A stretch of 58,239 bases of DNA, the filler included, from Jimgerdemannia flammicorona (lineage: Eukaryota): NCBI GenBank assembly GCA_003990765.1. It is 3 parts of 3 records of this genome, joined end to end, with 100 filler letters (N's around TTAATTAATTAA, not from the genome) between each part and the next. Parts side by side here need not be neighbours in the genome. Positions count along the whole stretch, not along the records: positions 1 to 19,348 come from RBNJ01001960.1; 2 more parts are not named here. The stretch is one strand, 5' to 3'. The position numbers were made by a program, and so were the translations under genes. The notes below the pieces were generated by a model. The model was not told where the DNA came from, made no database searches, and saw only the letters and a list, made by a program, of their open reading frames with translations. Below, one piece after another: positions 1,466-55,361 of this stretch (its first letter is position 1; every line of letters begins with the position of its first letter).

Positions 1466-2995
1466 TGTTAAAAAAAAATTTATTTAATATAACAGTGACC
1501 CCAGAATGATGACATCAGTACAGGAGACAGTCTTTCCTTATAAGCTACCAGATCAGAGTACAAAAAGATTATACAGCATATGAGATAAGCAATAATGACC
1601 AACTGTGAGTCATTGTGACCACAGTACAAGTATCCTGAGAAATATAAAAGAAGGATCAAGGAACTGTAGTAGCAGCAACCAACAAGACCCACCAATTCCA
1701 AAATAGCTCAAAGACTTACTATAAATGAAATACCTGCTGCTCACTAAACCTCAAGATCAAGGAACTACCAAGGTATCTCAGTTGAAGAAAGGATGTTCCA
1801 AGACATCAGAAGAGCCATGAGGACCTGCTCAAGAAGGACTCCTAGTATCAACCTAGATATTAGTAACTCTTATCACTATATTCTCTACTACCATGAAATG
1901 GAAATAAGAATCACCATTGCTATCGAATACCTCCAAATATAGCAGGAGTATGAAATATGAAATCTCCTCTGCCAGAAGTTCCCACAGACCAGTTCTCAAG
2001 AGCTACAAGATACCACTTCCATGGATATATGTGAGATAAGAATGGCTAAGAAGATCCATCAGATCTTCAGGCATGCATCATGGTTGATCCCTAACTTGGA
2101 GTATGTTAGAGTCTCAGATTTCAGAGACCTGTCATCCCACTATATCAATATACTAGAAGCCAGAGTGGCTACAGAAGCCCAGTCTACTATCACTCTCAAT
2201 AGTGATGAAGTAGAAAACTTCTAGCATCCCATCCTTCAGGACAACCCAGACCAATTTCTGTAAGAATTGATCTCAGTATTCTAAGGCCCAAGCATCCAGA
2301 TTAGACCTCCCCAAGACCCCATATTTATTCACTATTTTGTAGAAGAGAACCTCATAGACTAGAGAGCTCCAGACCTCCTTCTTACTGCTGAATGTGATGA
2401 TGTCATCAGCAATGACATCATCCCACATGACATATATAAAATATATGATAAAGTATATGAAGTATACAAAACATATGATGATGACAAATTCACAGATCTC
2501 ATCTCCTTTGAAGATATCCTGACCTCTGATGATGAAGTCCTCATAGTCCTGAATATTCTGCTCTAAGTCTCTTGGTTACACTGAATAATACCAGTACTAG
2601 CATTCTGATGTGATATTAAATTATACCAGTATCCTGAACCTATACAACCATCAGTACTGACCCTGGAACTTAGTAGTTTTTCCTGTCCTGGTATTTTATT
2701 TTAGTTATTGGAATTTATATTTAGCTTTATATCTTAGCAACCATTGAATTATATTTTGTATAAATATCTCTCTTATTTTCTCTGAAATAAAGTCAGTTCT
2801 GGTTTACTTATATATACTTCCTTGTAAGCAATCTAAGAGATAACAAGATAGTTAAAGATAAGAAGTTTGAGGACTATAAGACCTTGGGAAGGCACTCTAA
2901 TAAGAACTTACTTATAACAAACTTGAGTTAGTTTAAGAGATATATCTTGAAGAGAATCCGATATATTTGAAGGACTCAGTGACCACTTTGTGACA
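1466..2995 (+). repeat. Putative 5' LTR of element A (right end firm, left end uncertain)
   Basis: Ends ...TGTGACA, followed by a PBS-like TGGTGCCC. The last ~185 bp match the inverted copy at 38609-38794. TATA (about 2759) and AATAAA (about 2786) are present. The start at tgtta (1466) is inferred. Confidence 0.6.
1506..2566 (+). pseudogene. Decayed accessory ORF of unknown function upstream of the TATA in the element A LTR
   Basis: Includes ORF 2021-2224 (IRMAKKIHQIFRHASWLIPNLEYVRVSDFRDLSSHYINIL) and an acidic tail. Resembles the LTR ORF of element B. Confidence 0.55.
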
Positions 2996-2998
2996 ACT

Positions 2999-3015
2999 TG
3001 GTGCCCATTGGCTGG
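2999..3015 (+). promoter_or_regulatory. Putative tRNA primer-binding site of element A
   Basis: TGGTGCCCATTGGCTGG lies 3 nt after the LTR end. The tRNA species is not identified. Confidence 0.6.
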
Positions 3016-5209
3016 TGATTCAAGATGAATCCCCCACTTTCAAGCTGAAAAATGAACAACCCCCACAATAACTACTCTGACTACAAGAGTCACCCCTGCA
3101 AGAATTCAAGATAAGATGGAAATGTGCCCCCCCATATTCTATAGATATACTACTGAAGAGTCAATCCTGACCTTCATTGAAGACTTTAAACAATTCACCA
3201 CTATATGAGCCCTTGGTGTAGATGCACAATTGGCCCTTCTACCAGTCAGCCTCAGAGGACCTGCCAGAGACAAGTTCAATATAGCCACTATTGCCAATAA
3301 TGATATAGCCAAACTTGCCAATATGAAGGCCTTCTTCAGAACAACATACTATACTGAAGAAATCAAGCAAGCTCTCAAGGATCAACTCAATACTATCTGC
3401 CAGAGACTTAGTGAAGATCCCAACTCATTCTATACCCAAACCTACTATCAGATTGTCTTGGCTGACTATGATGATGCCCTCAAGGAACAAATAGTGAATT
3501 TAACCTTCTTCAAAGGAGTTCACTCTGAAATTGCCCTAGCAATCTGGTCTACCCCAGCTGCACTGACCCTTGATCAGAAAGTAGTCTTTGCATAGAGATA
3601 TTAGACTTCCAGACACCCTGCTGAATACTCAATGGAGAAAATAACTAGCATCAAGATGGAGCCATTAAAGCCAACCAGTATTATACCTGCTACAGTTATA
3701 AACAGACAACCAACCCCACCTACCCCCAAGGCAGCCAAAGCTGACCCAGTGGAAGAACTCACCAAGTAGTTTACTGAGATGACTACATACCTTAGTGATG
3801 TTGTTAGAGAAGTCCAAAGTACCAACAGGAGACCAGTGCAGAGATTTGCAGCTACTATAAAAGAATATAATATCACATGATTCAGATGTGAAGAAGAAGG
3901 CCACTATGCAAAGAATTGCATAACTGAAATGAGATGCAAGGCCCAACCAAGTAATGCTAGCAGAACTAGAGAACAAACCAATGCAGTAGTCATCGAGGAG
4001 ATTGGTGACACTGATAATAAAGAATACTATGAGGAGCTTGAATTCTACTCTACTACTAAAGGTACCAGAACCCAGTTCAAGCCCTATGACAAGAAGAGCA
4101 ACAGCAAGCCAGTTGGAAGACCAAAAAAGATTCTAGCTATTACTATTCAAAGCAAGACTCAATCTGAGGAGATTGATCAAGACATAGAGTTAGATGAAGT
4201 TGTTTGCCAAATCATTAAAGGCACTACTCCAGTTTCAGGAGAAAGTGAAAGCAAGAAGAAACAGAAGCTGTACAAGACCAAGATCCACCAGTATGATATC
4301 TACAAGGACCTCAAAGAATAGAAGATCAATGCTACTTTTGGACAACTAGCTGAAGTCCCTGCCTTCAGACAGCAGTTGAGAGTAGGACTTGCAACTACTG
4401 CCAAGAATCAAGAGTACAAGATTATAGAAGCTCATAATGCACAGAAAAAATCTGAAAACTCAGATGAAGAATCTGAAGACTAGTGCAAGACATCAGCCTA
4501 TACTCTATGTTAGATTGAAGACTATATCTTTGATACCATCATTGATACCAGTGCTGGAGGATGCCTCATGCGCAAGAAGACAATTGACCACCTAGGTTGG
4601 GATATTGAAGAGTCCACCAAGATGATCTATATTACAGCAGATAGTATATGAGCTATTCTCCTTGACAAAATCCAAGAAGTCCCCATCAAGATAGGAGGAG
4701 CTATGATCTCAGTAGATGTGATTGTTATAAGTGCCACCAACTATGACATCCTTATTGGCAACTAATGGCTTCACAAGGCTAAGGCCATCATTGACCTCAA
4801 TGCCCAGAAGATGCAGATCAACTATAGAGGAAGAAAGGTACAAGTCTCTATCAATATCCACAAAGGAGTTCTACCAGACATAGAGAAAGGAGATGAAGAG
4901 AATACAGAGGTCTTTATGCACTCAATGAATAAGAATAAGAATAAGAACAAGACACCAAAGCTCACAGATAAGTAGTGGTACAACAAGATTATTGATAACT
5001 ATGTCCCTCAAGGAAGATGCCCCCATAGTACTAGGATGTACTGCTCTGAACACCTGAATGACTGCTGGTCCTGTATCAGTGAAGTTAGGAAAATCTACCA
5101 ACAGAAACATGAGCAAGAAGCTACTAAAGCAAAAAGAAAAGCTGAAGAAGATGACCAGCCCTCAGAGCTTCAAGCTAACAGTAATGATGAGGAGGAATAA
5201 GAATCAGAC

Positions 5210-5630
5210 ATCACCCTCAAGGTCAAGAAGTTTTACCCTGAAGCCAAGATCCCAGAATATAAGACTGAAGGAGCCATAGGAATGGACCTTGCCAGTATTC
5301 AAGATGCTACTCTCGAACCACAGACCACCACCCTACTTAGTACTGGAATTGGAGTCAAGCTGCCAGAAAACCATACTAGAATTATCAAAACCAGGAGCAG
5401 TCTGGCCAAAAGTGAAATCTCAGTTAAAGGAAGAGTAATTGACCCTGATTACACTGGTGAGATCTTCCTTATAGTCAGAAATCACAACCCCACCACCCTA
5501 TTCAAAGTTAAGAAGCATAACAGGATTGGCCAGATGCTGATCTATGAAATCAAGAAACCCAAGATCACTGAAACCATTGAACTCATCAAGACCAAGAGAG
5601 GAGAACAAGACTTTGGATCTACTGGAAGAG
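5210..5630 (+). pseudogene. dUTPase domain of element A, between protease and RT
   Basis: Motifs GAIGMDL, TRSSLA, GRVIDPDYTGEI, RIGQML, RGEQDFGSTG. Confidence 0.92.
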
Positions 5631-7576
5631 GAGCCAATATCACTACTAAGATTACTGAACTTAAGCATAAGAAAGACAAGGACCAGAACAAGCACACATA
5701 TACTATTGGAGAAAACTTTCCCCTGGAGGAACAACTTCTCAAGATCCTGCACCAGAATGAAGGGGTACTTGCTACAGACTTTAGAGATATCCACAATCAA
5801 GAACCCAAGTACTACCATGAAGTTGACACTAGTGATACCAAGCCCATCTACCAGAAAGCTAGACCCATATCACCTGCCTACAGAGAATGGCTGCAAGCAG
5901 AACTCAAGGAAATAGAAGAAGCTGAAATCATCAAGCAAGCTATCAGTCCCTGGGCTTTACCCATTGTCCTTACTCTGAAGAAAGAAAGCAAGTCTGGAGA
6001 GTTTGTATGAAGACTCTACATTGACTATAGAAAGCTCAATGCCATCACTAAGAAGGATAAACAGCTCTTGCCAAATATTCAAGAAATCCTTACCACTCTT
6101 GGAAGTGAAGCCAAATACTACACTACCCTGGATCTATTCTCAGGCTTCTATCAGATTGATCTCACTCAAGATGCTAGTGAGAAATCAGCCTTCATCACAC
6201 CTGATGCCATCTATATCTACCTGCAAATGCCATTTGGAATGTGCAATGCCCAAGTAAGTTTCCAGTAAATGATGAACAGAGTCTTCAGCAATGAGATTGG
6301 AAAATGGCTCTTTGTCTATATTGATGATATGATCATCTTCAGCAATACTGCATGGGAATATGTCAATCACATATAGCTAGTCCTCAAGAAGCTCAAGGAG
6401 CATGGCCTCTATATTAAGCCCAAGAAATACAAGTTTGCAGCTCAATAAATTGCCTATCTAGGACACCTCATCAATCAGACCAGAATCCACACAGACCCTA
6501 TGAAGATCAAGGCTGTTGCAGCCTACCCAAGATCCAGAACAACTACAGAAGTCCACACCTTCCTTGGACTGGCCAGCTACTACAGAAGATTCATCAAAGG
6601 ATACTCTAACATTGCAGTACCTATCTACAAGCTACTGAAGAAAGAAATCAAATTTGAATAGACCAAGGAGTACCAAGAAATCTTCAATGAACTCAAGACC
6701 AGGTTGACCTAAGTATCTATCCTCAGAAGACCAGATTGGAACCTAGAATTCATCCTGCAGACAGATACAAGTGCTATAGGACTTGAAGCAGTCCTAGCTC
6801 AGAAGAAAGATGGACATGAATATGTCATCTCCTATGTAAGCTGAGGTACCCATGGAGCAAAACAGAACTATGAGTCATATAAGCTTGAATGCTTAGCAGT
6901 AGTCTGGGCAGTAGATAAGTTCTACTACTACCTAGCTAGGAAATACTTTACTATTCAAACAGACTATTCTGCTCTTGCCTGGCTATTCCACACTCTGAAC
7001 TCCAAAGGAATATATGCCAGATGGATCTACAGGCTGCAAGAGTATAACTGTACTGTCAAGTACTGCTCAGAAAGAACCAATACCAATGTTAATGCACTCT
7101 CAAGAACACTCTGAAACACCCCCATCAAGATTACTCAACATGAATAAGGAGCTATACTATGGATTAATCAGCTACCTTGGGCAGCGGAAGATGCTCAACT
7201 ATCTTGAACCCTGGACAATTACCATTATCAACCAGACTTAGAAACAGTTTGAACTAGACAATACTATACTCAGAAAAGGTAGAAAGCTAGTAATACTTAA
7301 ATACAAGAAGTATCAAGTAATGAAGGAAGTATATGAGCAAGGATACCTAGGAGAAACTAACATATATGACAAGGTAAGAAAAACCATATGATGGCCCAAG
7401 ATAGAAGAAGACCTGCATCAATTTATCAAAGAGTATGACAAGTATCAAAAACAGAAATAAGATCAGTAAGACCAGGTACCCAGATCATTAATAATTGAGC
7501 CTATCCCCTTCCACCACATTGTAATGGATATCATTGAGCCACTATCAGTAATACTATCAGGAAACTACTATATTAT

Positions 7577-9587
7577 TATAAGAGGGTTGCTTTTTAGAAT
7601 AACCATTATGTAGTTCTGGAAGAGTTTTCTGGAAGTTCTGGATGTTCTGGAAGACCATTTTCTTATAGTCAAGATCAATTTCATATGGAGTACATTCTCT
7701 ATACTTATTGATTTTAAGTTTGGGTTGACATCTCAACCAAAGTCCTTTTTCAGACTAGTTCTAGATGTTTAGGATTTTCCATATTTCAGGAAGTTCAAGA
7801 AACTAAGACCAGCTTAGTTGAATTGGTGTATCGCTGCAGACAATACCCAATTAGGAAATTTTGTGATAGGGTTAGAAGTGGGACCTAATAGAGAGCAGAT
7901 TTACTTAAGAGTGGTTTGTGAGTTATTAAATAAGTTTATTTACTATTCATGATATTACTATACTAGGAGTAGTTGTATAAAGAGATATTGTGGGAAAGTG
8001 CTTAGGAGTTGTGTTCAGATTGTTTAAGTCTTTCAAGTCTGAGATTCTGAGGTCTGAGAGAGGGGGTATTTATACTAGTGAGGGGCTATCTAGACTATAC
8101 TAGATATGGATATAGCACTAAGTACCTTGCTGAGTCGAAATACAGTCACATCATACAAGGCTAATCTAACTATACTATGACTGCTAAGCTAATTATAGGT
8201 TTAGATACTATCTGGGTAGTCTTCAATGACATCACCATCAATGAAATCATCTCTGATGAAGTAGTTGTCTAGGAAGAGTGGTTTGCAGATTACTTCTTCT
8301 TGTTCGCTGAGATAATAATACATTGGAACTTCATCACTATCTTACAAGATAGCATCATCTGTCTTGTATGCTGGATAAGGTGTTGGGGGGTAAAGGAGTG
8401 GTGCATTATCTTTGCTTTCATCAGATTCACTGTCTGCATACCTTCTGTAGGTTACAGTACTATGAGTCATGGGGTTGTAGTATACTGGTAGCTGTGGTTC
8501 ATGTTGCTTGTACTTGGGTGGTGGAGTGGTTGGTTTGATCTCAAGAGTTGTCTGGAGGTACAGATTATGTTCTCCAGTCTCTTCATTATAGTTGAAAGTA
8601 ATCAGGGGTAAATATAAGTTAGTATTCATACTAGTGATTATTGTCCCAATAAGTCTCATATGTGGTTATAAACTATTGTAAGTTCATCAGCAAGATTGGT
8701 GGTATAATTAGTATTGGCAGAGATCCTTAGCTTGAGGTCATGTCAGTGTCAGAGGGATCATTATCTTCTGCTTCATCTTCATTGAACTAGATTATATCAT
8801 AGATATCCTTTATAGTGTATCTAATTTGGGACATTTGCAGGATGTGGTCATCGGGGTACAAGAAGGTTCTGTCTATAGTCTGGATGTACTCGAGGTACTT
8901 GTGGTTGAGTTCTTGTATCATATCATCAATTTGGCCATAGGACAGAGTAGCAACCATTTTACTGGTAGTAACTCAGAGGTAGGAATAAAGGTGCTATACT
9001 CATAAAAGAGTTCTCTATGTTTGTGGGCAATGAGCTTCTGGTGTTGAGACATCTGGATAATGTTCATATCATGGTGGTGTTCAACTATGTCTTCTAGGAG
9101 GTGGCCAATCTAGTAGTAGCTTGAGATTTGTCTGATTTAGTGGGCCTCATTAAGCATGTTTAGAGCATTCCATCAGGCTTTCATGAAGTAGAGGGGTGCT
9201 AGGCTATGAATATTCATGAGAGACAGAGGGGGTGTGGCTTGATTGACAATGGCATTCCAAATGTCAGTATAGATGTGATTGTATATCTCAGTGGTCATGT
9301 TTATATATGTTCAGAAGTTATGGTTGCTGTTTGTTTTGGTTTTCTGTTTGACATGTCTTAGTGCTCAGTATATATGCATTTGGTCCTAATTGGTAAGATT
9401 CTGTTTATATAAATCTTGTATTCTGTGACTTCATATTGACTCAGCTTTGTGTGCTGTGACTTTGGTTTGACTCAGCTTCATGATCGAGCAGATGATTTCC
9501 AGATTTATTTAGAGATCACATGTGATTTCAGTGGCTTGTTCGGAGGGTGATGTGTGATTTCTGTGGCTTAGAGGTTGTATGCTTACA
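7577..9587 (-). repeat. 3' LTR of element B (~2.0 kb)
   Basis: Direct repeat of 16106-18094, differing almost only by transitions, and preceded on the minus strand by a polypurine tract. Confidence 0.95.
8201..9298 (-). pseudogene. Accessory ORF (~365 codons, decayed) in U3 of the element B 3' LTR
   Basis: MTTEIYNHIYTDIWNAIVNQATPPLSL...RQISSYY.IG.LLED...KLIAHK..ELF...LSYGQIDDMIQEL..., then an acidic tail. Some stops are not shared with the 5' LTR copy (e.g. TAA at 8727 vs CAA). Confidence 0.7.
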
Positions 9588-10034
9588 ACTCTCCCCTTCT
9601 TAGCTTTCAACATCCTTATCAGGGCCTTCTAATTTGTTCTAGCATTGTTATACCATTTGAAAGGTCAAAAGTCCAGTAAAGTCCATTTTTCTCAGAAAGT
9701 GGCATGCTCATAATATAGTTGCCTAACATATTGGATTTATATGTTAAAGGGTCATGTGTTCAATGCTATATGCCAGAAGTGATTCTGACATCATTCACTA
9801 CTGGAGAATTTCCTTTAAGGAATCTTCTTAAATGTCTATGCCTAGTTTCCCACCAGTGGTATGGGGAGAATAGGCTGGCTTTCAGTTTTGCTATTTTTCT
9901 AGAGGATCAGTATTCTTTTGTCTTAGTTTGCTGAGTTCTTAATTTTGTTCATGATAATTATAATATTTGGAAGATAATATATAGTATGTATGGTGTCAGA
10001 GTATTCAGATTTTAATTGTTCAAGGAATCATGTT

Positions 10035-10185
10035 CCTGAACTAAGTCAGTAGCATTCTGGAGATTGGTCTTGGGTTTCCATGTTACATCATGGATCAGGT
10101 ATCCTTTCCATTTGACAAGGTACTCAGGGTGGTTCTTGTTGCCACATTTGTTGAGGATTTGTTCAACTTTGTATTCTTCTTGGTC
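10035..10185 (-). pseudogene. Integrase C-terminal chromodomain of element B
   Basis: EEYKVEQILNK...PEYLVKWKGYLIHDVTWKPKTNLQNA. Confidence 0.9.
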
Positions 10186-13100
10186 ATTAATAATGACAGG
10201 TGCAGGGGGTTCTGTGGCTTGGTTTGGAAATAGTTCATCATCATTGTCATTGTATCGCTTGAGACATTAGACATTAAAGACTAGATAAATCTTAATGGTG
10301 TCTGGTAGTACCAATTTGTAAGAAGTGGGAGAGACTTGTGTGATGACTTTGAATGGTCCAATGAACTTGCTGTTTAGCTTCGTAGATGGTCTGTGCTTCA
10401 GGTTGTCTACTCGATACCCTTGGATGTCTAGTAGAACTTTTTCTCCAATGTCAAAGGTTTCTTCTCAGCAGTGTTGGTTAACATACTGTGACTGTTGTTC
10501 TTAAGCTTACAATAAATTCTCAATTGCAATCTGGCTCAGATTACACATTTGGAGTAGGAATTCTTCAACAGCTTCGACTGTGGAGAGTTCTTCAGTGGTT
10601 CAGATAAGTGTCAAAGAGGTGTTTGGGTTTTGTCCAGTATTGGTGAAAAATGAGGTCATTCCTAGAGAGGCTTGCTTGCTGTTGTTATAGATAAACTTGA
10701 CTGTGGTCAAGTGTTCATACCAATCATCTTATCTGTAGGAAACATAGTTCCTTAGCATTTATTCTAGAGTTCAGTTCATTCTTTCAGTTTGGCCATCAGT
10801 TTCTGAGTGAAAGGCTGTGGATAGTGCAAGTTTTGTTCCAAGGTATGCATGGAGGGCTTTCCAAAAATGGCTGGTGAATTTCAGGTCTCGGTTGCTAATA
10901 ATGATCTTAGGAAGACCATGATAGCAGAAGATGTTGTCAAATAAGAGTATGCTATGTCTGGTGCTATTGCAGTAGTAGTAGTAGGTACAAAGTGGGCTTA
11001 TTTGCTGAGATAATCTACAAAGACAATAATTGTATCTTTTCCATTCTTGGTTCAGGGTAGTTGTACAATAAAGTCCATAGAGATTTGTTCCCAATTCATG
11101 GATGGTACTGGGATAGGGTGGAGTAAGCCAGGTTTTGCTAGTGTTGAGGACTTGTTTCATTGGTAGGCATCACAGGAAGTGATGTAGGTTTTGAGCTGAT
11201 CTGCTATGTAGGGCCAATAGAAGTTTCAGAAGATAACTTTATAGCATTTGTCAAATCCTAAATGTCCAGCTGTAGGGGCATTGTGACATTCGAATAGGAT
11301 AGTCCTTTGGAGGTCTTGGTTGTTTAGGATATATAGTCTGTCCTTGTAGTAGATGGCATTGTTCTTGAGTTGGTATTGATGGTACTGGGTATGCTTATCA
11401 GTATCATCACTATTCAGAATTTCTTGGAGTGCTTGAGCTTCCTTATCATCAGCATATGCTGCAATAATTTGTTCCATAATAGTGTTGGTAATCAAGGTGA
11501 GGGTTTGGATAACTTCTTCAATTAGTAGTCTGGATATTGTATCAGCAACAATGTTTTCTTTGCTAGGGCAATACTGGATTTCATAGTTAAAGTTAGTGAG
11601 GACTTTCATCCATCTGGCTTGCTTTCAAGAAAGGGTAGCCTGTGTCTTGATGTTGACTAATGACTTGTGGTCAGTCAATACAGTGAAGTGTGCTCCTTCT
11701 AGGTAAGGTTGTTATTTGATCAGAGTATCTACAATGGCTAGCATTTCCTTCTCATGGGTTGCATAGTTGATTTCAGCATCATTGAACTTGCAGAAATGAT
11801 AGGTGACTGGGTGTCTTTCTTGCATGAGTACTGCTCCAAGAGCTAGATCAGAGGCATCAGTTGTGACTTCATATGGTAGGGCAGAATTTGCTGCTTGAAG
11901 TACTGGAGTGGTTATCAAGGCATCCTTCAGTGCTTGAAAGGCTGTATCTTGTTCAGGTCTCCAATTTGCAAGATTGTTGAAGTCTTTCTCTTGTTTCATA
12001 GTCCAGGGCTGTTCTTCTTTCTTGCTGTGCTTGGTCATTTGGGTGAGAGCAGTGGTGATTTTGGCAAAGTTAGCAACAAATCATCTATAATAGTTTGCTA
12101 ATCTCAGGAATAACTGGAGGTCTTTCAGCTTTCATGGTCTGGGCCAATCCTTGATTGCAGAAATTTTGCAGGGGTCTACTTTGATTCTATTTGGTGTGAC
12201 AATGTATCTAAGGAATTGAATTTCCTTCAGTAGGAATTCACACTTGCTAAGTTTTACAAAGAGTTAGTTTTTTTGGAGTTTCAGTAGTACTAGTTCAAGG
12301 TACTCAAGATGTTTCTCCAGGGTTTTGCTAAAGACTAGGATGTCGTCAATATAGATAACAACAAATTTGTCCAAGTATGGGTGCAGGATAGTATTCATCA
12401 GTATCTGGAAGGTTGTAGGAGCATTAGTTAAGCCAAAAGGTATAACCAGGAATTCGAAATGTCCATAGTAGGTTCAGAAGGCTGTCTTGTAGATATCTTC
12501 TTCTTTCATAGTGATTTGCCAGTAACCATTTCGCAGATCAAAAGAGCTCATGAATTGTGGGTTGGTAAGCTTATCAAATATTTCATCAATTCTTGATAGT
12601 GGGTAACAGTTCTTGATGGTCTGTTCATTGAGGTCATGGTAATCAATACACATTCGTAAGTCTCCTCCTTTCTTGATAATAAAGAGTACCAGTGCACTAT
12701 AGGGTGACACACTGGATCTGATGAATCCTTGTTCTAGGAGTTTATCAATTTCTTTCTTAAGTACATCAATTTCTCTTAGAGACATATGGTAGATTGACTT
12801 GAATGCTGGTTTGGCATCAGGGATAGTTTTGATGGCATAGTCTACTGCTTGTTTAGGTGGTAGGCCTTTCGGAAGTTTCTTCAGAAATATGTCTCAGAAT
12901 TTCTGAAGTAGTGGTCTGACATAGCTGTCAACTTTGGAAAAATCTTCTTCAGAGTTCTTGGGTTCTTCTTTGGATGGATGGATGGAGATAGCAAAGAGAG
13001 GGCATTTCTTGGCCAATTTCTTAAGTTAGAGCTTGTTGATGTGGGTGATCTTTGGTCCAGAGTTATTAGAACTGAGTGGGTCCTTTTCACCTTACAGTTT

Positions 13101-13669
13101 GAAGTTGTGGCATCCTTTCTTGATAGTCAGAGAATGGTTTACCCAATCGATCATGGGGTTCTCTTGTTTCAGCCATGGGGTTCTAAGAATGATTTCATTA
13201 TCAGGAAGTGGTACAATTCAGTGGGTAACATATACTCAATAGTCACCAATTCAGAAGGGTAGATTGCAGACTTCTTTGCTAATAACATGTGAGGTTCCAT
13301 CAGCTGTGGCAACTGCTTGAGTTTGTTATACCAGAGAGGTGAAGACCTTAAGTCTGTTGGCTGTTTCTTTATTGATGAAGTTGCCTAAGGCACCACTGTC
13401 TATCATAATCTTGACAGGTGCTCAGTTGACAAAAGCTTTAAGTGTAAGCAGTTTGTCTGATCCAATAGTAGTGATTTCAGTTGTAGGAGCTTTCCTTCTG
13501 TTGGTTCTTCTTTGAGCCAGTTCATTGACACAAGAGAAGCAATCATCAATCATTCGAGAAGAGTACATTTCAATGCCATGGGGGCATCAGCCACTTGGTA
13601 CATATCTATCTTTGATTTTCTTATAGAATTGTTCTTCTTTATTCATAGTAGATTGGGCTGGGGCCTTGT

Positions 13670-14080
13670 TTGATGAACCAAATCCTTTGGATCCTCAGAT
13701 AGTGGGCAGTAGTTCAGGGACTTCCTTGACTATCAGAGTTGATTCAATTTTTTTGAATAGAATCTGGGTAATGCAGAACCCAATAGGAATCTTGAAGGGT
13801 GTCCAACTGTGGTTTTGGATGAGGACAATAATTTCACCTGTATAATCTTCATCAATGACTCCTCCTTCTACTGAGAGTCCTTTCAATGCTAGGCTGCTGT
13901 GACAGTATATTCTTCCAACATGTCCTTCAGGGATTTGGATACTGATTCCTGTATAGACTTGTTTGACTTCTCGGTTGGAAACTATAGCTTCTTCAGCTGC
14001 ATACAGATCATATCCAGCTGCTTTTTGACTTCCTTTGGTTGGGGCCTTAGCAGTTTGTCTTAACTTGACAAAGTCCAGTA
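13670..14080 (-). pseudogene. dUTPase domain of element B, between gag and protease
   Basis: KAPTKGSQKAAGYDLYA, HSSLALKGLSVEGGVIDEDYTGEI, ITQIL, GSKGFGSS. The protease (MIDSGALGNFI, about 13380-13410) lies downstream. Confidence 0.92.
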
Positions 14081-16087
14081 TTCTAGTGGTCAGGTTATTG
14101 AGGTGGTGCAGAGTGGTAACAGTTGCTCATATTACTGTTTGGGGTTTTCAGTTGGAGCAGGCACTGGCTATATGTCCTGTCTTTCAGTAATAGAAGCATG
14201 CTCTGCTTCTTCAAAGTTCATTTCTTTCACCTTCGGTGAGTTTCTTGAAGGTACTCAGCTGGGTGGGTTTATAATTTCTGGGTGTCCATGAGGTGGATGT
14301 GAAGGGAGCTTGGGATGCCTCATACTTGGGCTCTTCTTTCTTGATCCAAGTCTTTTTCTTGTTGTTAAATTGTCTTTGAGGCAGAATTGGTCCAGCTGTT
14401 AGGATTCACTTGACCATAGTCTTGATTCTTACTAGGCACCATTATTGGTAATCACAACTGACTGGGTGGCCTTGTTCACAGATTTTTCTCATAAGTCATT
14501 CAGGCAGTATATCAAATAAATGGTCTGCTCTTGTACCATTTTATGCTTCATCATTGGCAATATATCCTAAGCCAACAGTGTTCAGGAGTGACTTGAGTTT
14601 TATACAGAAGGTTTCAAATTCTTCTTTGCCATGTATATCAAATTTGAAGTTGCAGAGTTTTACTTGAGATTCAGCAATTATGGTTTCACTGCAGTATTGA
14701 GCAATCATGAGTTGTTTGAGTACAGGGGCTGCAGGTTGGGCTCCATATCCTGGGGCATTGTTTGCTATATTCTGAGTAACTACTGCAGGTTGGGTATCCC
14801 ATGTGAGGGTTTTTTCAGGAAGGGTTTGCTACCATTCTTCAGCAGGTCCTTAGAAGAATGTAACAACTTTGCAGACATAGGCTGTAGTGGTAGCAAAGAG
14901 TTGTTCCAGAGTATGGTCTTGATTGTTTGTCAGAATGTGATCAGCCACTCACTCATTGGTCCATTGATTGGCTTCGAAATTGGTGTCAACTACACTAATA
15001 AAGCTTTGGACTTCTTGTGCAGTACCATTGAAGGTAGGTAGGCTCAGATTTTTGGTAGGTTGGGTCTGTTCGGCTAAGGCAGTAATGGTTGCTGCTATTA
15101 TGGCTACTTGGACTATGAGGTCTAGAATCTGTTGGTTTGCTATATTGTTTACTGGAGATAGTTGAACTACTGGTAGTAGTGTTACTAGTACTACTTGAGG
15201 TACTGGTACAGAGTGTGAGGGTATTCTTTGAGTCTGTGTAAGTTGCTGGAGTAGTAGTTGTGGGTCTGGAGTAAGGGCTTAATAGATAGCTATCTGTTGC
15301 TATGTAGGTGTGTTCTGTCCTGATGGAAGTGCATCTCCTTTGGTGGTGTATCTGGGATTGAATTCACTGAGATACTCCTCCTCTTCTTTGGTTTGGTCTC
15401 CATGTAATTGGGTTTGCTCAGCATCAAAGTAGACAGAATCAGTGGTATATCTGATTTCAGATGGGCTTAATTAAAAGTCAAGTTCAGGTTCAGTATTGGT
15501 TTCAGATTCAGGTAGGGCTGTAGCAGGGCCTGCTTCTGGTTCAGAGTCAGATAGTTGATGAAGGGTTTCTCTTGCTTCTTTTTTAAGAATATGGCAGGCC
15601 TTGCTGTTCTGGAATTGGTAGTATAATGCGGTCTTGGTCCTGGTGTGGTAAAAGTTGGTAGAGTTGAGCCACTTAGCTACAGAGACTTGGGCTTTGTAAG
15701 GAACTAAGGCTAGAAAGACTGCTGCTGGTTATCCTAGGTCACTCAGATTTGTGGAGCTGACAAAACTCTTGTTGAGAAGAGTAAAGAAGGCTTCTATAAG
15801 ACCTTCTTCATCTTGACTTGCTGGGTGTAGAGCAAGGAGTTTGGTAAATAGGGTTTTGCCTATTTGCTGATTTAACTGGAGTATTTCTTTCTTCGAATGA
15901 AGTTTGTCCCACTTGTTGTAGATATAGAGGTCAAATTGTCCTTGTATATCAGGTTCAATTCTCTTCAGATTGTCAGATGGTTCAGGATAAATTCTAGTTC
16001 AGAGGTTGGGCTTTATACCAACTTGTAGGAATTCGTAGAGGGGTTTGTAGTGGGGTGAGAAAGTGTCTTGAAGTGGAATTGGATTGT

Positions 16088-16102
16088 AAACCACTGCTAC
16101 TA
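16088..16102 (-). promoter_or_regulatory. Putative initiator tRNA-Met PBS of element B
   Basis: TAGTAGCAGTGGTTT 3 nt after the 5' LTR, consistent with a G-to-A decayed TGGTAGCAG. Confidence 0.6.
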
Positions 16103-16105
16103 AGT

Positions 16106-18094
16106 TATAAGAGAGTTGCTTTTTAGAGTAACTGTTACATAGTTCTAGAAGGGTTTTCTGGAAGTTCTGGATGTTCTGGAAGACCATTTTCTTATGGTCA
16201 AGATCAATTTCATATGGAGTATATCCTCTATACTTATTGATTTCAAGTTTGAGTTAACATCTCAACCAAAGTCCTTTTTTGGACTAGTTCTGAATATTCA
16301 GGATTTTCCATATTTCAGAAAGTTCAAGAAACTAAGACCAGCTTAGTTGAATTGGCATATCACTGCAGACAATATTCAATTAGGAAATTTCGTAACAGGG
16401 AACCTAACAGGGAGCAGATTTACTTAAGAGTAGTTTGTAGATTATTAAATAGATTTATTCACTATTCATGATATTGCTATACTAGGAGTAGTTGTGTAAA
16501 GGGATATTGTAGGGAAGTGCTCAGGAGTTGTGTTCAGATTGTTCAAGTCTTTCAAGTCTGAGATTCTGAGGTCTGAGAGAGGGGGTATTTATACTAGTGA
16601 GGGGCTATCTGGACTTTGCTAGATATGGATATAGTACTAAGTGCCTTGCTGAGTTGGAATGCAGTCACATCGTATAAGGCTAATCTAACTATACTATGAC
16701 TGCTAAGCTAATTATAGGTTTAGACACTATCTGGGTAGTCTTTGATGACATCACTATCAATGACATCATCTCTGATGAAGTAGTCATCTAGAAAGAGTGG
16801 TTCGTAGATTACTTCTCCTTGTTCACTGAGATAATAATATATTGGAACTTCATCACTATCCCACAAGATAGCATTATATGTCTCATATGCTGAATAAGAT
16901 ATTGGGGGGCAAAGGAGTGGTGCATCATCTTTGCTTTCATCAGATTTGCTGTCTGCATACCTTCTGTAGATTACAGTACTATGAGTTATGGGGTTGTAGT
17001 ATGCTGGTGGCTGTGGTTCATATCACTCATACTCAGGTGGTGGAGTGGTTGGTTTGATCTCGAGGGTTGTCTGGAGGTACAGGTTGTGTTCTCCAGTCTC
17101 TTCATTATAGTTGAAGTAATCGAGAGTGAATATAGATTAGTATTCATACCAGTGGTCATTGTCCCAATAAGTCTCATATATGGTTATGAACTGTTGTAAG
17201 TTCATTGGCAAGGTTGGCAGTGTGATTAGTGTTGGCAGGGATCCTTGGCTTGAGGTCATGTCAGTGTCAGAGGGATCATTATCTTCTGCTTCAACTGGAT
17301 TATATTGTAGATATCCTTCATAGTATATCCAATTTGGAGCATTTGTAGGATGTGGTCATTGGAGTGCAGGAAGGTTCTGTCTGTGGTCTGGACATACTCA
17401 AGGTACTTGTGGTTGAGTTCTTGTATCATATTGTTGATTTGGCCATAGGACAGAATAGTAACCATTTCACTGGTAGTAACTTGGAGGTAGGAAATAAAGG
17501 TGCTGTACTTGTAAAAGAGTTTTCTGTATTTGTGAGCAATGAGCTTCTAGTGTTGAGACATCTAGGTAATATCCATGTCATGGTGGTATTTGATCATGTC
17601 TTCTAGGAGGCAGCCAATCTGGTAGTAGCTTGAGATTTGTCTAATTTGGTGGGCCTTGTTAAGCATATTCAGGGCATTCCATCAGGCTTCCACGAAGTAG
17701 AGGGGTGCTAGGCTATAGATATTCATGAGAGGCAGAGGGGGTGTGGCTCGATTGACAATAGCATTCCAAATGTCAGCATAAATATAGTTATAGATCTCAG
17801 TGGTCATGTTTGTATATATTCAGAAGTTGTAGTTACTGTTTGTTTTGGTTTTCTGTTCGACATATCTTAGTGCTCAGTATATATATATTTGGTCCTGATT
17901 GGTAAGATTCCATTTATATAAATCTTGTATTCCATGACTTTGTATTGACTCAGCTTTGTGCACTGTGACTTTGGTTTGACTCAGCTTTGTGATTGAGCAG
18001 GTGATTTCCAGATTTGTTTGGAGGTTGTGTGATTTCAGTAGCTTGTTTAGAGGGTGACATGTGATTTCTGTGGCTTGGAGGTTGTGCACTTACA
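16106..18094 (-). repeat. 5' LTR of element B (~2.0 kb)
   Basis: Direct repeat of 7577-9587, flanked by the TSD ATTAT. Confidence 0.95.
16720..17807 (-). pseudogene. Second copy of the U3 accessory ORF (5' LTR of element B)
   Basis: Same reading frame as 8201-9298; includes ORF fragments 17256-17465 and 16986-17177. Confidence 0.7.
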
Positions 18095-38894: not shown

Positions 38895-39220
38895 TGGAGG
38901 CAAATTACAAGATTGGGAGGTTGTGTTAGTTTGGCTTGAGCCCTCAGTTACTTTGTTAAAAACAATAAAATATTCTTAGTATTTAGTGGTATAATAGTCA
39001 AAGCTGGATATCTGTGGTTGATTTATACATCAATTTCCTAATTGGGATAGTTCTCTGAGTATAGCAGTATTTTGTATATAACAGGTGATTTAGCAGTCTT
39101 CCTTCTTGCATGATAGTTTCCAAAAGTATGTGATTTCGTGATGATTCCTATGTAGCATGATAATCTCTGTATGTGACAGTCTAGCAATTTAGTAGTTCTC
39201 CTTCTTGAGTGACAGGTAAT

Positions 39221-39271
<51 letters not shown>

Positions 39272-40247
39272 GATGACAGGCAATCTCTATATAGTACAAT
39301 AATCTCCTTATATGTGGTAGTCTGGTAATTTGGCAGTTGACTCAATTTGGATATAGATTCTTCTAAAGCAGACTCACTGGGAATAGAGAATAGTATAGAT
39401 TCTTCCTAAATCAGCTCTCTGGAAATTGTACTGATAGTAGATCCTTCTTACTGAGAATAGATGAATAACTTGGATAATTCAGATAACTCAGATGTCACAG
39501 ATTCCTCCTGAATTGGCAGGCTCTCTGGGAATAATACTTGGGTGGCATAGATAACTCAATAACTTGGGTTCTTGACAAGTTACATCAAAGGCTGGCTTCA
39601 TTTGTATGAAGTTATATTGTTAGACTGGCTCTACTGTGAAGTTGTATCAATAGACTAGCTTGTGGCAAGAAAGGCAGGCTCTCTAGGAATGTGGTGAATA
39701 ACTCAAAAATGGAAAACAGCAGATTACTGAAATGGTAGCAAAGTTCTTCCTTAAACTTTGGTAGCAAATTCAGATTCTTCAGATTTATCTGGCAAGCAAA
39801 CAAAAAATATAACAAACTCTTTTTTGTATCAGAAAGTGGACCAGAGTGGAAAGAAATGCTTTGCTTATAATCTCCTAGCAGTGGCTATAGAGTTTCTCTT
39901 GAAGTGTGGTAGGCAGACTTGACTTTTGCTTTGGATTCAATTCAGACTGAGGTTTATTCACTCTTATCTCTGGGGTATTTTATATAATTGAGATTGCTAC
40001 TGGTTACTATATTGCTAACTATAGATTGCTAACTATAGCAAGTATTTCTTGAGAGTACAGTATACCTGAAGGATATAGTATATCTTGAGGGTATGGTATA
40101 CTTAGAGGGTATAGGTAAACATACTGTTTCTGATATCTCTGGCTAAATATATAGATTGGTGTAGTAAAGTAGTCTTGGTTACCTAGTGCACTAGATAGTA
40201 TATGACTAATTTATGATTTCAGTGGTGCAATTCTGTTGCTCATTACA
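38895..40247 (-). repeat. 3' LTR of element C (outer end lost in the gap)
   Basis: Direct repeat of about 55381-56673; starts TGTAATGAGC on the minus strand. Confidence 0.92.
39224..39273 (-). mobile_element. Abortive retroposed poly(A) insertion with TSD inside the 3' LTR of C
   Basis: T-run plus atgga, flanked by tgacaggtaatctc / tgacaggcaatctc; absent from the 5' LTR (about 55700). Confidence 0.8.
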
Positions 40248-40289
40248 TTAGCCCCTACTAAAGAGTGATCTGTCCTCAGACAATCCTTT

Positions 40290-40810
40290 AGTCATCATTC
40301 CAATGTACATAAGTATCTTCAGTATCAATACCTGAACTGGTATCTTCATTTGGATCAGAGTCACTCCACTCAACAGATTCTTCTTCTTTCTCTGGAAACA
40401 GGATTTTGATGTGGTTGATGATGCTCTAGTAGGTGACAGAATTTATGTTTTGGATGTCATTTAGGAGAAATTGTACTTGCATCAATGCCAGGATATTCTA
40501 TTTGTAGATTGTATACAATCTGTCTACAGCAGTGGTATTTTTCTAAATGAGGCCAGTAGAGTTTCTGATGTAGGTTAGGTCTGCTGCTGAGAGGTTCTGC
40601 AACTGTTCTCTAATTGCATAGTAGGCCTGCAGCTGGTGGACTTACAGTAAATATCTGGCCAAGGTGAGGTTCTCTTAATAGGTCTGGATTCGTTGAAGGG
40701 GGTTTCCATTAGCTTGTTGAAATTGTGGAAGAGAAACTGAAAGTGATTGAAATGAACTCAGAATAAGGGTCTGGAGGCACTGGTCAATTATCTGATTTAT
40801 GATGGAAAAG
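40290..40810 (-). pseudogene. Accessory ORF between integrase and PPT of element C, similar to the LTR ORFs of A and B
   Basis: NQIIDQCLQTLIL...PLQRIQTY...VHQLQAYYAIREQLQ...TAVDRLYTIY, then an acidic tail. Confidence 0.55.
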
Positions 40811-43628: not shown

Positions 43629-45219
43629 TTTTTTTATTTTTTTTTTTTATAGTCACTCAGACTTCTTCCTTTATTAAAACACTGTCTATCTTCTAAATAA
43701 TACACAATGCCCAACCCTATCTGATCCCCCTAGAGGGGGCCCCTCCTCTCACCCCCACTCAATAAAAGACCACTTTGTCTAACACTATCTCCACCCACCC
43801 ACCACTCTGTTCACAGATTCCTTCTATCAGACAATGACATTTACTACTCTGGAGACCCCAACCCACCCACCACCCAGTCAGCAGATCTCCCATCAACCCC
43901 TCCCACCTTAACAACTTCTCCTATAAACCCATCTGCCACTCCTTCTTGAAATCAAAGAGCCAATGTCCAGCCAGCCCTACCCCACACTGCCAAAACCCAC
44001 TATATAGTGAGCCAACTATTGCCACACCACCCACTAGCTAAGATTTCAAATTCTCCCAGTGATCTCTCTCTCCATCTGGTCTCCTCTCTATATCTAGCCG
44101 ATTCCCTACTGCTATCCAAAAGTCCCCCAGAACCTCACACTCCCCCAGCCAATGTTTAGGTGTTTGCACAAATTCACCAACTTGCCCTACATTATAACAC
44201 TCCTCACAATCTAATTGGCCACCCTCCACTAGATGCCCAGCATGGAAATTCAACATGACATTCCTCCTTAGTATCTGCCACCATACCACCCAGAACTTAG
44301 AAGAAAGCTACTGCCACATCTCAGCACTCCATGACCAGACTCCTGCCCAGTCCCACTCCTTACTAATCCCCACAGCCTGCCAACTACTTGACCAAAGATC
44401 CTGGCCAAGACCCCACTGACACTCCACTCCATCACCAATATCAAACTCAGCAAGCAGAACACCCCCCAGAAGGAGTCTGTCCCATCGCCACATAGCTGGA
44501 CCCCACAGTACCTCTCACTCATTGTCTTGCCAGCGCAGTCCTATCCGGTGTGCTCCATCTACCACCCCCCACCAGAAGCCCTTATACCATAGCTGTCAGC
44601 TTTCAGTCAGGCCCACCAGCGAGAGCAAATCTCCTGAGGACCCCCAAGGGGAGAACCTCATCTCCTACACCTTCTGCAGCAGTGGTACTCAACCTCCTCC
44701 CTGCAGTTCAACAGTCCTTTTCAACCACCAAGCTTGCAAGCAGTGCAGCTGCTTAGGGAAATCCACAAGGCCTAGTCCTCCCCTAACCACCAGTGTTGCA
44801 AGAGCATCCCAACTGATCTGGAACCTCCTCTCTGCCCAAATCCAATCTCTAGTCAGTTTCATCAGTCTCTTCACCATCCAAGCCAGGAAGTCTAAGTGAT
44901 AGGCCACATACCATAGCTTGGGAAACCAGTAGACATTCAGAATCGACACCCACCCTGCCAGGGAGATGTGGCAACCCCCCCAACCTCTAAGAGCCTCCCC
45001 CCAAATAGCCACTCTCCTCTCTCACCACACTCATGGCAAGACAGATCCATAAACAGAAAGGAAGATGCCCAAATACTGCACCACCTCTCCTGTGGAGACA
45101 ATTGTTCCAATGACGTCCCCTCCCACTAGCCCATTCCCTAACACCATTGTCTCACACTTATGCCAGTTGAGTTTCGCCCCAGAGTGTGCCTCATACCATT
45201 CCACTGTCTCCTTGAGTGC
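43629..45219 (-). mobile_element. 5'-truncated L1/Tx1-like LINE inserted in element C pol
   Basis: Poly(A) tail; RT C-terminal sequence (SGAKLNWHKCE, WFPKLWY, GGLGL); TSD ctggttggtggtatactt (43611-43628 / 45220-45237). Confidence 0.92.
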
Positions 45220-45294
45220 CTGGTTGGTGGTATACTTGCTGGGGAACATTCCTCTTGAGGTGGTTGACTTGAAGGAGATGTACTTCCTTCTTGT

Positions 45295-46781: not shown

Positions 46782-46787
<6 letters not shown>

Positions 46788-46822
<35 letters not shown>

Positions 46823-55341: not shown

Positions 55342-55359
55342 TTCCCAGTTGAGCCCCCA
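55342..55359 (-). promoter_or_regulatory. tRNA-Pro primer-binding site of element C
   Basis: TGGGGGCTCAACTGGGAA next to the 5' LTR, resembling the canonical Pro PBS TGGGGGCTCGTCCGGGA. Confidence 0.8.
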
Positions 55360-55361
55360 AA

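What the first reader, a model, noticed from the sequence alone, without database searches (positions are those of the whole stretch)
13670..14080. Three different LTR retrotransposons all encode dUTPase, in two different positions
Seen: A has PR-dUTPase-RT (5210-5630), C has PR-extra domain-dUTPase-RT (45295-45707), and chromovirus B has gag-dUTPase-PR (13670-14080). Known: dUTPase is rare in fungal Ty3/gypsy elements (Tuber Tmt1 has it between PR and RT), and placement before the protease mirrors betaretroviruses. The elements have different PBSs and only B shows a chromodomain, so they are separate lineages. Inference: repeated capture or exchange under selection against uracil in cDNA in this host.
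Basis: partly seen in the sequence, partly recalled or inferred. Interest (0 to 1): 0.75.

Follow-up and report, generated by a model that had tools for sequence, protein, structure and literature searches.

The report
Known dUTPase-carrying fungal Gypsy retrotransposons
Three dead Gypsy-type jumping genes in this fungal window each carry a dUTP-destroying enzyme, before the protease in one and after it in two, but this variable placement was already described for fungal elements in 2010.

Summary
The core observation is real. Three decayed Ty3/gypsy elements each hold an in-frame trimeric-type dUTPase (Pfam PF00692, E 1e-23 to 1e-29) at the stated coordinates. The layouts are A gag-PR-dUT-RT (+ strand), C PR-dUT-RT (- strand) and B gag/Zn-knuckle-dUT-PR-RT-RH-INT-chromodomain (- strand).

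Corrections:
- C's "extra domain" is not shown. Of the 7.3 kb between its PR and dUTPase, 5.9 kb is a nested LINE with a 16-bp target duplication. A second, truncated LINE separates its dUTPase from RT.
- A and C are not separate lineages. Their RT-RNaseH group in one clade with two other dUTPase elements (SH-aLRT 98). B sits in the chromovirus clade among 48 dUTPase-less elements.

The phenomenon is in print. Novikova et al. 2010 (PMC2864245) report dUTPase at the N-terminus of Pol, at its C-terminus, or between PR and RT in Postia placenta elements, and propose independent acquisition. All these layouts also occur in public proteins.

The dUTPase and RT trees disagree (AU p 0.0045), which favours exchange or repeated gain. 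The source is unresolved.

A side result is a ~45-residue Cys/His motif that always lies between dUTPase and PR, in either order.

Verdict: ordinary, a new member of a known kind.

The parts
2809..7576 (+). Element A remnant (Ty3/gypsy; no LTR pair in the window; cut inside its integrase by B's insertion)
   Evidence: P0003 aligns to 3116-4903 (gag-PR) and 5267-7105 (dUT-RT-RH, 44% identity). Pfam domains. Segment 2809-2997 recurs inverted at 38794-38607.
4499..4820 (+). A protease
   Evidence: RVP_2 E 5.3e-6, 26.7 bits, cut-off 20.3
4955..5113 (+). A Cys/His motif 'Z' (CPH...C...CxxC) between PR and dUTPase
   Evidence: Z profile E 7.6e-27. 48.7% identical to B's copy, E 3.6e-9.
5240..5626 (+). 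A dUTPase
   Evidence: PF00692 E 1.3e-23, 83.6 bits. 89% identical to P0162.
6011..7460 (+). A RT, RNaseH and integrase zinc finger (the last after a frame change)
   Evidence: RVT_1 2.5e-26, RT_RNaseH 5.4e-28, Integrase_H2C2 3.7e-6
7577..18094 (-). Element B, complete chromovirus with 2-kb LTRs (7577-9588 and 16105-18094), inserted into A
   Evidence: LTR pair 87.7% identical over 2014 nt. TG...TA ends, polypurine tract and 5-bp flank repeat ATAAT read.
13671..14051 (-). B dUTPase, directly after the gag CCHC knuckle and before PR (the finding's coordinates)
   Evidence: PF00692 E 1.4e-29, 102.9 bits. Same frame as the knuckle, PR and RT.
13491..13649 (-). B Cys/His motif 'Z' between dUTPase and PR
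   Evidence: Z profile E 2e-28
13113..13460 (-). B protease
   Evidence: RVP_2 E 6.4e-8, 32.9 bits
10033..12677 (-). B RT, RNaseH, integrase, SH3 and chromodomain
   Evidence: RVT_1 4.7e-31, RT_RNaseH 3.5e-28, Integrase_H2C2 4.8e-14, SH3_Tf2-1 9.2e-14, Chromo 1.5e-10
38895..56676 (-). Element C (LTRs 38897-40250 and 55383-56676) with two nested LINEs
   Evidence: LTR pair 82-86% identical. Its 3' end abuts a run of N, so the TSD cannot be read.
52978..53305 (-). C protease (weak, decayed)
   Evidence: tblastn with the PR parts of P0003 and P0030. No Pfam PR hit at E<0.01.
46788..52699 (-). Nested full-length LINE in C, between PR and dUTPase
   Evidence: RVT_1 9.5e-19; Exo_endo_phos 0.0053, below cut-off. 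Poly-A and 16-bp TSD.
45668..46771 (-).
   Evidence: No Pfam hit, no tblastn hit from 165 fetched proteins, no Z motif even with the LINEs left out in silico.
45296..45667 (-). C dUTPase
   Evidence: PF00692 E 2.1e-23, 82.9 bits
43627..45219 (-). Nested 5'-truncated LINE in C, between dUTPase and RT
   Evidence: Poly-A and 16-bp TSD. Leaving out its 1593 nt plus one 16-nt TSD copy (1609 nt, which is 1 mod 3) puts dUTPase and RT in one frame (arithmetic).
41929..42978 (-). C RT and RNaseH
   Evidence: RVT_1 4.3e-20, RT_RNaseH 3.4e-23

Best explanation
The window holds three dead Ty3/gypsy LTR retrotransposons of two RT lineages. B is a chromovirus, and A and C belong to a second clade. Each ancestor encoded a homotrimer-type dUTPase as a domain of the Gag-Pol polyprotein. 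The domain lies between PR and RT in A and C, and between the nucleocapsid knuckle and PR in B.

Shown here: the domains, their order and frames, the nested insertions, the two RT lineages, and the presence of the same layouts in many other public retroelement proteins.

Inferred from what is established for non-primate lentiviruses and betaretroviruses: the enzyme is released or active in the particle, hydrolyses dUTP to dUMP and pyrophosphate where reverse transcription takes place, and so keeps uracil out of the cDNA when the cell's own dUTPase is low.

The layouts are family traits acquired before these copies inserted. They were most likely spread among Gypsy lineages by more than one gain or by exchange of a dUTPase(+Cys/His motif) segment between elements. 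The pattern was described for fungal elements in 2008-2010, so the locus is a further example and not a new kind.
For: Domains and order.

Element boundaries and nesting.

Literature:
- PMC2864245 (passages) reports three positions of dUTPase in Postia placenta PosPlaTy3-3, -4 and -5, and earlier reports for Phanerochaete chrysosporium and Tuber Tmt1.
- PMC5408684 and PMC6431247 (passages) report PR-dUT-RT in rotifer, planarian and fungal elements.

Public proteins, among 156 examined (6 plus the best 150), by layout:
- 13 PR-dUT
- 10 dUT-PR
- 2 dUT-Z-PR
- 5 dUT-Z
- 1 Z-dUT
- 102 dUTPase only
- 23 tandem dUTPases
Pfam on 31 of them shows gag-knuckle-dUT-PR (P0116), SH3-chromo-dUT (P0119) and copia-type elements (P0072, P0141).

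RT-RNaseH tree of 58 rows: A+P0162 99*, with C and P0003 98*; B+P0161 100*, inside a 97* clade with 48 dUTPase-less rows. At least 4 changes of dUTPase state are needed.

None of the 120 listed closest RT relatives of B carries PF00692.

AU tests on the 41-row careful dUTPase tree: dUTPases of the A/C/P0003 RT clade as one clade, p 0.0045; A lineage plus C, p 0.05; all Z-linked dUTPases, p 0.031.

Enzyme type: the best solved matches are cellular or large-DNA-virus trimeric dUTPases (75.8 and 84.9 bits). Retroviral chains score 44-58 bits.
Against: - The dUTPase trees are weak. In the quick 132-row tree 11 of 128 inner branches are starred, and in the careful 41-row tree 10 of 38. B's dUTPase is unplaced in both.
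- The AU groups were named after I had seen a dUTPase tree. Two of the three tests are borderline.
- Sampling is biased. All dUTPase-bearing rows came from searches seeded with B's dUT-Z-PR segment or with Z. All dUTPase-less rows came from a search seeded with B's RT. No dUTPase-less relatives of A or C were sought, so 'the A/C clade is all dUTPase' may be an artefact.
- In one search only the 8000 candidates sharing most words were scored, and only the best 120 were listed.
- The public hits carry no organism names, and no cellular dUTPase of this fungus was available because no genome is held. Host capture could therefore not be tested.
- Between intact relatives of A and B (P0162 and P0161), identity is 42% in dUTPase and in Z against 37.5% in the start of RT. 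This does not show a recent exchange.
- No function was assayed, and the copies here are dead.
Confidence: 0.82

Rival explanations
1. Exchange between elements. A dUTPase, in A and B together with the adjacent Cys/His motif Z, moved between unrelated Gypsy lineages by template switching or recombination of co-packaged RNAs. The same module therefore sits in different RT backgrounds and on either side of PR.
For: - Z is shared by A and B (E 3.6e-9), although their RTs lie in different clades.
- Z is absent from C and P0003, the RT sisters of A.
- All 15 of 15 Z-bearing proteins carry PF00692, in both orders.
- dUTPase and RT trees disagree, AU p 0.0045.
- A starred dUTPase group holds both orders: P0002 PR-dUT-RT, P0030 dUT-PR and P0035 PR-dUT (95*).
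Against: - Holding all Z-linked dUTPases as one clade is weakly rejected (p 0.031).
- Z and dUTPase are only about 42% identical between the A type and the B type, close to the 37.5% of RT.
- A mirror order (PR-Z-dUT against dUT-Z-PR) cannot arise by one simple recombination.
- 8 of the 15 Z proteins were the seed of that search.
Confidence: 0.4
2. Repeated independent capture of cellular (or DNA-virus) dUTPase mRNA by different Gypsy lineages. This is what the first reader and Novikova et al. 2010 proposed.
For: - The dUTPases of A and B score best against eukaryotic cellular and large-DNA-virus enzymes, not retroviral ones.
- dUTPase-bearing rows are scattered in the RT tree, needing at least 4 changes.
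- 0 of 120 listed close RT relatives of B have the domain.
- PMC2864245 states independent acquisition from different sources. Its supporting tree, Additional file 2, is a .DOC file that could not be read.
Against: - No named cellular dUTPase of fungi could be placed in my trees, so no donor is shown.
- The shared Z motif next to the dUTPase in two lineages is hard to explain by separate captures of a cellular gene.
Confidence: 0.35
3. One ancient acquisition in an ancestor of these Gypsy lineages, followed by domain shuffling and many losses.
For: - Comparable divergence of RT, dUTPase and Z between the A type and the B type.
- The backbone of the dUTPase tree is unresolved.
Against: - It needs loss in nearly all chromoviruses sampled (48 of 52 rows of that clade; 0 of 120).
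- AU rejects vertical descent within the A/C/P0003 clade.
Confidence: 0.15

Closest known systems
dUTPase-containing fungal Gypsy elements PosPlaTy3-3, -4 and -5 of Postia placenta (Novikova et al. 2010, PMC2864245), and those of Phanerochaete chrysosporium (Novikova and Blinov 2008, cited there; not read)
   Same: Several Gypsy families in one fungal genome carry a dUTPase in different places. The N-terminus of Pol matches B's layout, and between PR and RT matches A and C. The authors propose independent acquisition.
   Different: No sequence of those elements was available here, so kinship is untested. A C-terminal dUTPase was not seen in this window, although P0119 shows that layout in public data. 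The Z motif is not mentioned in the passages I read.
Tmt1 of Tuber melanosporum (Riccioni et al. 2008; known to me only through citations in PMC2864245, PMC5408684, PMC6431247)
   Same: A fungal Gypsy element with its dUTPase between PR and RT, as in A and C.
   Different: Tmt1 is said to have a chromodomain (PMC12581995). None is detectable in C, and A is truncated. The Tmt1 sequence was not compared.
Betaretrovirus pro-encoded dUTPase (e.g. MPMV; solved chain 2d4l)
   Same: The dUTPase lies between the nucleocapsid and the protease, as in B.
   Different: B's PR matches the Ty3-type RVP_2 family. 2d4l scores 45.8 bits with A against 75.8 for the best cellular-type chain, and is not among the 60 chains shown of the 61 that B matched. 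The likeness is in position only.
Rotifer Juno/Vesta/TelKA and planarian giant Gypsy elements (PMC5408684, PMC6431247)
   Same: The dUTPase lies between PR and RT. In Juno an extra Zn knuckle follows it, a parallel to the Z motif here.
   Different: These have animal hosts. No sequence was compared. By that paper's wording, Juno's knuckle follows the dUTPase.

Membership tests
Ty3/gypsy (Metaviridae) LTR retrotransposon | Pol order PR-RT-RNaseH-INT | tested here: met
   A, B and C. A lacks the integrase core (cut by B). C's integrase is only a weak tblastn hit (E 0.004).
Ty3/gypsy (Metaviridae) LTR retrotransposon | Pair of LTRs with a short target duplication | tested here: inconclusive
   B: 2-kb LTR pair and 5-bp ATAAT repeat. 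C: LTR pair, but the flank is N. A: no LTR pair found.
Chromovirus | Chromodomain at the integrase C-terminus | tested here: inconclusive
   B met: Chromo E 1.5e-10 after SH3_Tf2-1, with its RT inside a 97* clade of chromodomain elements. C: none at E<0.01. A: not testable because it is truncated.
Homotrimeric dUTPase (PF00692) | Profile match above the curated cut-off | tested here: met
   83.6, 102.9 and 82.9 bits against a cut-off of 22. 75 and 61 solved dUTPase sequences matched.
Homotrimeric dUTPase (PF00692) | Five conserved motifs, including the motif III Asp and the C-terminal Gly-rich motif V (motif definitions recalled) | tested here: met
   All five are recognisable in the translations printed. 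B has Arg-to-His (motif II), Arg-to-Cys (motif IV) and a stop in motif V. C has two stops. The copies are therefore inactive now.
Homotrimeric dUTPase (PF00692) | dUTP hydrolysis | not testable with these tools
   No assay.
PosPlaTy3-3-like layout (dUTPase at the N-terminus of Pol) | dUTPase between gag and PR in a Gypsy polyprotein | tested here: met
   B. Also P0116, P0031, P0019, P0024, P0161 and P0014.
PosPlaTy3-3-like layout (dUTPase at the N-terminus of Pol) | Phylogenetic kinship with the Postia element | not tested
   No sequence of it was at hand. Additional files 1 and 2 of PMC2864245 are .DOC files and unreadable.
Betaretrovirus-type dUTPase-PR unit | Retroviral PR and dUTPase kinship | tested here: not met
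   PR matches RVP_2, a Ty3-type family. Retroviral dUTPase chains score well below cellular-type ones.

The most novel reading that the evidence does not exclude
The dUTPase of these fungal Gypsy elements travels with an undescribed ~45-residue zinc-finger-like motif (consensus about EExWYxxIxDGYxPxGxCPHGIxMYCSEHxxDCWSC). The motif always lies between dUTPase and protease, whichever comes first. The pair would be an exchangeable cassette that has moved between unrelated Gypsy lineages. The motif may tether the enzyme to nucleic acid or to the particle, much as the nucleocapsid fusion is thought to do for the betaretroviral dUTPase (recalled) and the extra knuckle after the dUTPase might in rotifer Juno (the knuckle is reported in PMC5408684; its role is my guess).
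Probability: 0.3. Interest if true: 0.5.

Novelty: new member of a known kind. Interest (0 to 1): 0.25.

Why it matters
The locus adds another fungal genome in which several Gypsy families carry dUTPase in different places. It also gives cleanly dated nesting: B inside A, and two LINEs inside C.

It does not open a new question. The variable placement and the idea of independent gain have been in print since 2010.

What could still be worth a specialist's time:
- The Cys/His motif is tied to the dUTPase. All 17 proteins that carry it also have the enzyme, and it is not found in 120 dUTPase-less relatives.
- RT and dUTPase histories disagree, which bears on how retroelements trade accessory domains.

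Tried and rejected
- Whole-genome census of dUTPase families: not possible, because no genome is held.
- Notes of this scan by place and by sequence gave nothing. A search by words gave eight notes on other pieces of the same genome.
- Naming the organisms of the relatives: the ten clusters looked up carry no organism names.
- First homolog search with B's dUT-Z-PR part: only 6 proteins. The exhaustive HMMER search was therefore used.
- Z motif in C: not found in the six frames of the window. It was also not found after leaving out both LINEs and one TSD copy each in silico (best E 0.14). A by-eye likeness (CP.C...CSKH...CSEC at the LINE site) was rejected.
- A's missing LTR and 3' half: no match in 18096-27000, 37400-38900 or 56677-58239, apart from a 189-nt inverted piece at 38607-38794. 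No integrase core follows B.
- Careful 69-row dUTPase tree: it did not finish in two runs, because the row order changed and the search restarted. It was replaced by a fixed 41-row set, from which 9 TE-linked or fused rows and most 'solo' rows were dropped to save time.
- Structure of a dUT-Z-PR protein (P0014 with 12 relatives): mean pLDDT 54.5, with PR under 50 and Z at about 70-80 as helix-knuckle-helix. This was too weak for a fold search, so none was run.
- Age from LTR divergence: rejected. The differences are almost all transitions (220 against 4, and 180 against 12), so they reflect hypermutation and not time.

Full report
**What is in the window.**
The window is fungal DNA with a gene island. 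A flavin reductase lies at 27166-27816, and a large hybrid histidine kinase with kinase, AAA_16, TPR, GAF and receiver parts lies at 28840-37405. The island is flanked by decayed retroelements. A tblastn of the first dUTPase against the window finds three places and no more: 5210-5629 on the + strand, and 14051-13665 and 45685-45290 on the - strand. Reading the stops as X, Pfam gives PF00692 at 83.6, 102.9 and 82.9 bits against a cut-off of 22.

**Anatomy of A and B.**
- A (+ strand) reads, in one frame: gag with a CCHC knuckle, PR 4499-4820, a Cys/His motif 4955-5113, dUTPase 5240-5626, RT 6011-6466 and RNaseH. After a frame change comes the integrase zinc finger, up to 7460.
- A ends at 7576, where B is inserted. 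No LTR pair of A and no integrase core were found anywhere in the window.
- B (- strand, 7577-18094) is complete. It has two 2-kb LTRs 87.7% identical, TG...TA ends, a polypurine tract and a 5-bp flank repeat.
- B reads, in one frame: gag, CCHC knuckle, dUTPase 14051-13671, the same Cys/His motif 13649-13491, PR 13460-13113, RT, RNaseH, integrase, SH3 and chromodomain 10173-10033.

**Anatomy of C.**
- C (- strand, 38895-56676) has LTRs about 85% identical, PR at about 53305-52978, dUTPase at 45667-45296 and RT-RNaseH at 42978-41929.
- Two non-LTR elements are nested in it. A full-length LINE at 52699-46788 and a 5'-truncated one at 45219-43627 each have a poly-A tail and a 16-bp target duplication.
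- Taking out the second LINE and one duplication copy (1609 nt) puts dUTPase and RT in the same frame, which supports these borders.
The remaining 1.1 kb before the dUTPase has no Pfam hit and no likeness to any fetched protein.

**Is the dUTPase a real enzyme domain?**
All five motifs of trimeric dUTPases can be read in the three translations (motif names recalled). B has Arg-to-His, Arg-to-Cys and Arg-to-stop changes at motif positions, and C has two stops. The best solved matches of A and B are cellular-type and large-DNA-virus dUTPases (75.8 and 84.9 bits). Retroviral chains score 44-58 bits, and the betaretroviral chain 2d4l is not among the 60 chains shown for B. The likeness of B's layout to betaretroviruses is therefore one of position, not of descent. 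B's PR is also of the Ty3 type (RVP_2).

**What is already known.**
Novikova et al. 2010 (PMC2864245; passages read) found a dUTPase in several Gypsy families of Postia placenta. [quoted passage not shown] They cite earlier cases in Phanerochaete chrysosporium and Tuber melanosporum, and say the elements seem to have acquired the domain independently. Their supporting tree is in a .DOC file that could not be read. Later papers note PR-dUT-RT in rotifer and planarian Gypsy elements, and in Juno an extra Zn knuckle follows the dUTPase (PMC5408684, PMC6431247; passages). Both layouts seen here, and their coexistence in one fungal genome, are in print.

**Public relatives.**
An exhaustive HMMER search with B's knuckle-dUT-Z-PR segment found 21,579 proteins at E up to 0.001, of which 13 at E up to 1e-30. 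Among the best 150 plus the 6 proteins of an earlier search (156 in all), my domain mapping gave these layouts:

| Layout | Proteins |
|---|---|
| dUTPase only | 102 |
| Tandem dUTPases | 23 |
| PR-dUT | 13 |
| dUT-PR | 10 |
| dUT-Z | 5 |
| dUT-Z-PR | 2 |
| Z-dUT | 1 |

Pfam on 31 of them shows gag-knuckle-dUT-PR (P0116), knuckle-dUT-PR (P0031), SH3-chromodomain-dUT (P0119) and copia-type polyproteins with a dUTPase (P0072, P0141). P0162 (PR-Z-dUT-RT) is 85-89% identical to A, and P0161 (dUT-Z-PR-RT) is 88% identical to B. None of the ten clusters looked up carries an organism name.

**Lineages.**
In an RT-RNaseH tree of 58 rows (quick search, SH-aLRT), A pairs with P0162 (99). These two join C and P0003 in a clade of four dUTPase elements (98). 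B pairs with P0161 (100) inside a clade (97) that holds 48 dUTPase-less chromoviruses and also the PR-dUT-RT proteins P0002 and P0029 at other places. At least four changes of dUTPase state are needed. None of the 120 listed closest RT relatives of B has PF00692. B is therefore a separate lineage, and A and C are not separate from each other. The caveat is sampling: every dUTPase-less row was chosen as a relative of B, and none was sought for A or C.

**dUTPase history.**
The dUTPase trees are poorly resolved.
- A's dUTPase groups firmly with P0162, P0105 and P0039.
- C's lies weakly with B-type dUT-Z proteins.
- B's is unplaced.
- Holding the dUTPases of the A/C/P0003 RT clade together costs 52.6 log-likelihood units (AU p 0.0045).
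- A lineage plus C alone gives p 0.05, and all Z-linked dUTPases together give p 0.031.

The groups were named after I had seen a tree, so these values are indicative only. They favour exchange or repeated gain over simple descent, but they name no donor. Between P0162 and P0161 the identity is 42% in dUTPase, 43% in Z and 37.5% at the start of RT, which gives no sign of a recent transfer.

**The Cys/His motif.**
A and B share a motif of about 45 residues (48.7% identity, E 3.6e-9). Its invariant or nearly invariant residues are C, P, H, M, Y, C and C.
- A profile of it finds only these two places in the six frames of the window.
- It finds no place in C, even with the LINEs left out.
- A search of longer proteins found 15, all with PF00692. 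Eight of them were in the seed.
- With cluster members, 17 of the 165 dUTPase proteins fetched by then carry it. None of 120 dUTPase-less RT relatives does, although only 20 of those reach 350 residues upstream of RT.
- It always lies between dUTPase and PR: dUT-Z-PR in the B type and PR-Z-dUT in the A type.
- A model of P0014 gives helix-knuckle-helix at pLDDT 70-80 for this part, but the model as a whole is poor.

Notes of other agents of this scan on other pieces of the same genome report the same module. These are not independent evidence.

**How it most likely works.**
Shown here: a polyprotein-embedded, once intact, trimeric-type dUTPase in two Gypsy lineages. Inferred from retrovirus work cited in the papers above: the enzyme lowers dUTP where the element's RT copies RNA. 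This limits uracil in the cDNA and its attack by uracil-DNA glycosylase, an advantage in cells with little dUTPase of their own. Nothing here tests this, and nothing ties it to 'this host'.

**Verdict.**
The phenomenon is already described. It is a new member of a known kind and of low interest. A modest open thread is the dUTPase-linked Cys/His motif.

Noticed in passing
window 4955-5113 (+) and 13491-13649 (-): A ~45-residue Cys/His motif (CPH...C...CxxC) is shared by A and B. It always lies between dUTPase and PR, in either order. 17 public proteins carry it, all with a dUTPase. No Pfam family matched it at E<0.01.
   Followed up: partly
window 7577-9588 vs 16105-18094; 38897-40250 vs 55383-56676: Differences between the LTR pairs are almost only transitions (220 against 4, and 180 against 12), mostly at CpA/TpG. 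All repeats have CpG observed/expected of 0.02-0.19, against 1.08 in the gene island. This is a RIP-like or methylation-driven hypermutation aimed at repeats, so LTR divergence cannot date the insertions.
   Followed up: partly
window 46788-52699, 43627-45219 and about 19460-24855 (all - strand): Three copies of G-rich LINE-like elements with poly-A tails. Two are nested in C with 16-bp target duplications. The third is about 64% identical to the first.
   Followed up: partly
window 846-1464 (-): A fourth Gypsy RT fragment lies in the 26% G+C flank. It is 30-45% identical to the RTs of B, P0002 and P0029. Whether it had a dUTPase cannot be seen.
   Followed up: no
window 19349-19392, 19405-19448, 38795-38838, 38851-38894: Four runs of exactly 44 N, in two pairs 12 nt apart. 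One pair abuts C's 3' LTR and hides its target duplication. The other lies just before the third LINE's poly-A.
   Followed up: no
window 2809-2997 and 38607-38794: A 189-nt piece upstream of A's gag recurs inverted (91% identity) next to C's end. It may be the remnant of another copy or an LTR of the A family.
   Followed up: no
window 18241-18549: Two arrays of a 14-nt tandem repeat lie right after B's 5' LTR.
   Followed up: no
window 28840-37405 (+): The hybrid histidine kinase gene (kinase, AAA_16, CHK1-like TPR, GAF, HATPase, receiver) is read as at least eight separate open frames. These may be introns or frame breaks, and this was not examined.
   Followed up: no
other pieces of the same genome (notes e1-7557680, e1-7557067, e1-7553134, e1-7557531): Earlier notes of this scan report a small helical accessory ORF after pol in dUTPase-bearing Gypsy families. 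I did not look for it in B (9589-10032, or inside its 2-kb LTR) or in C.
   Followed up: no
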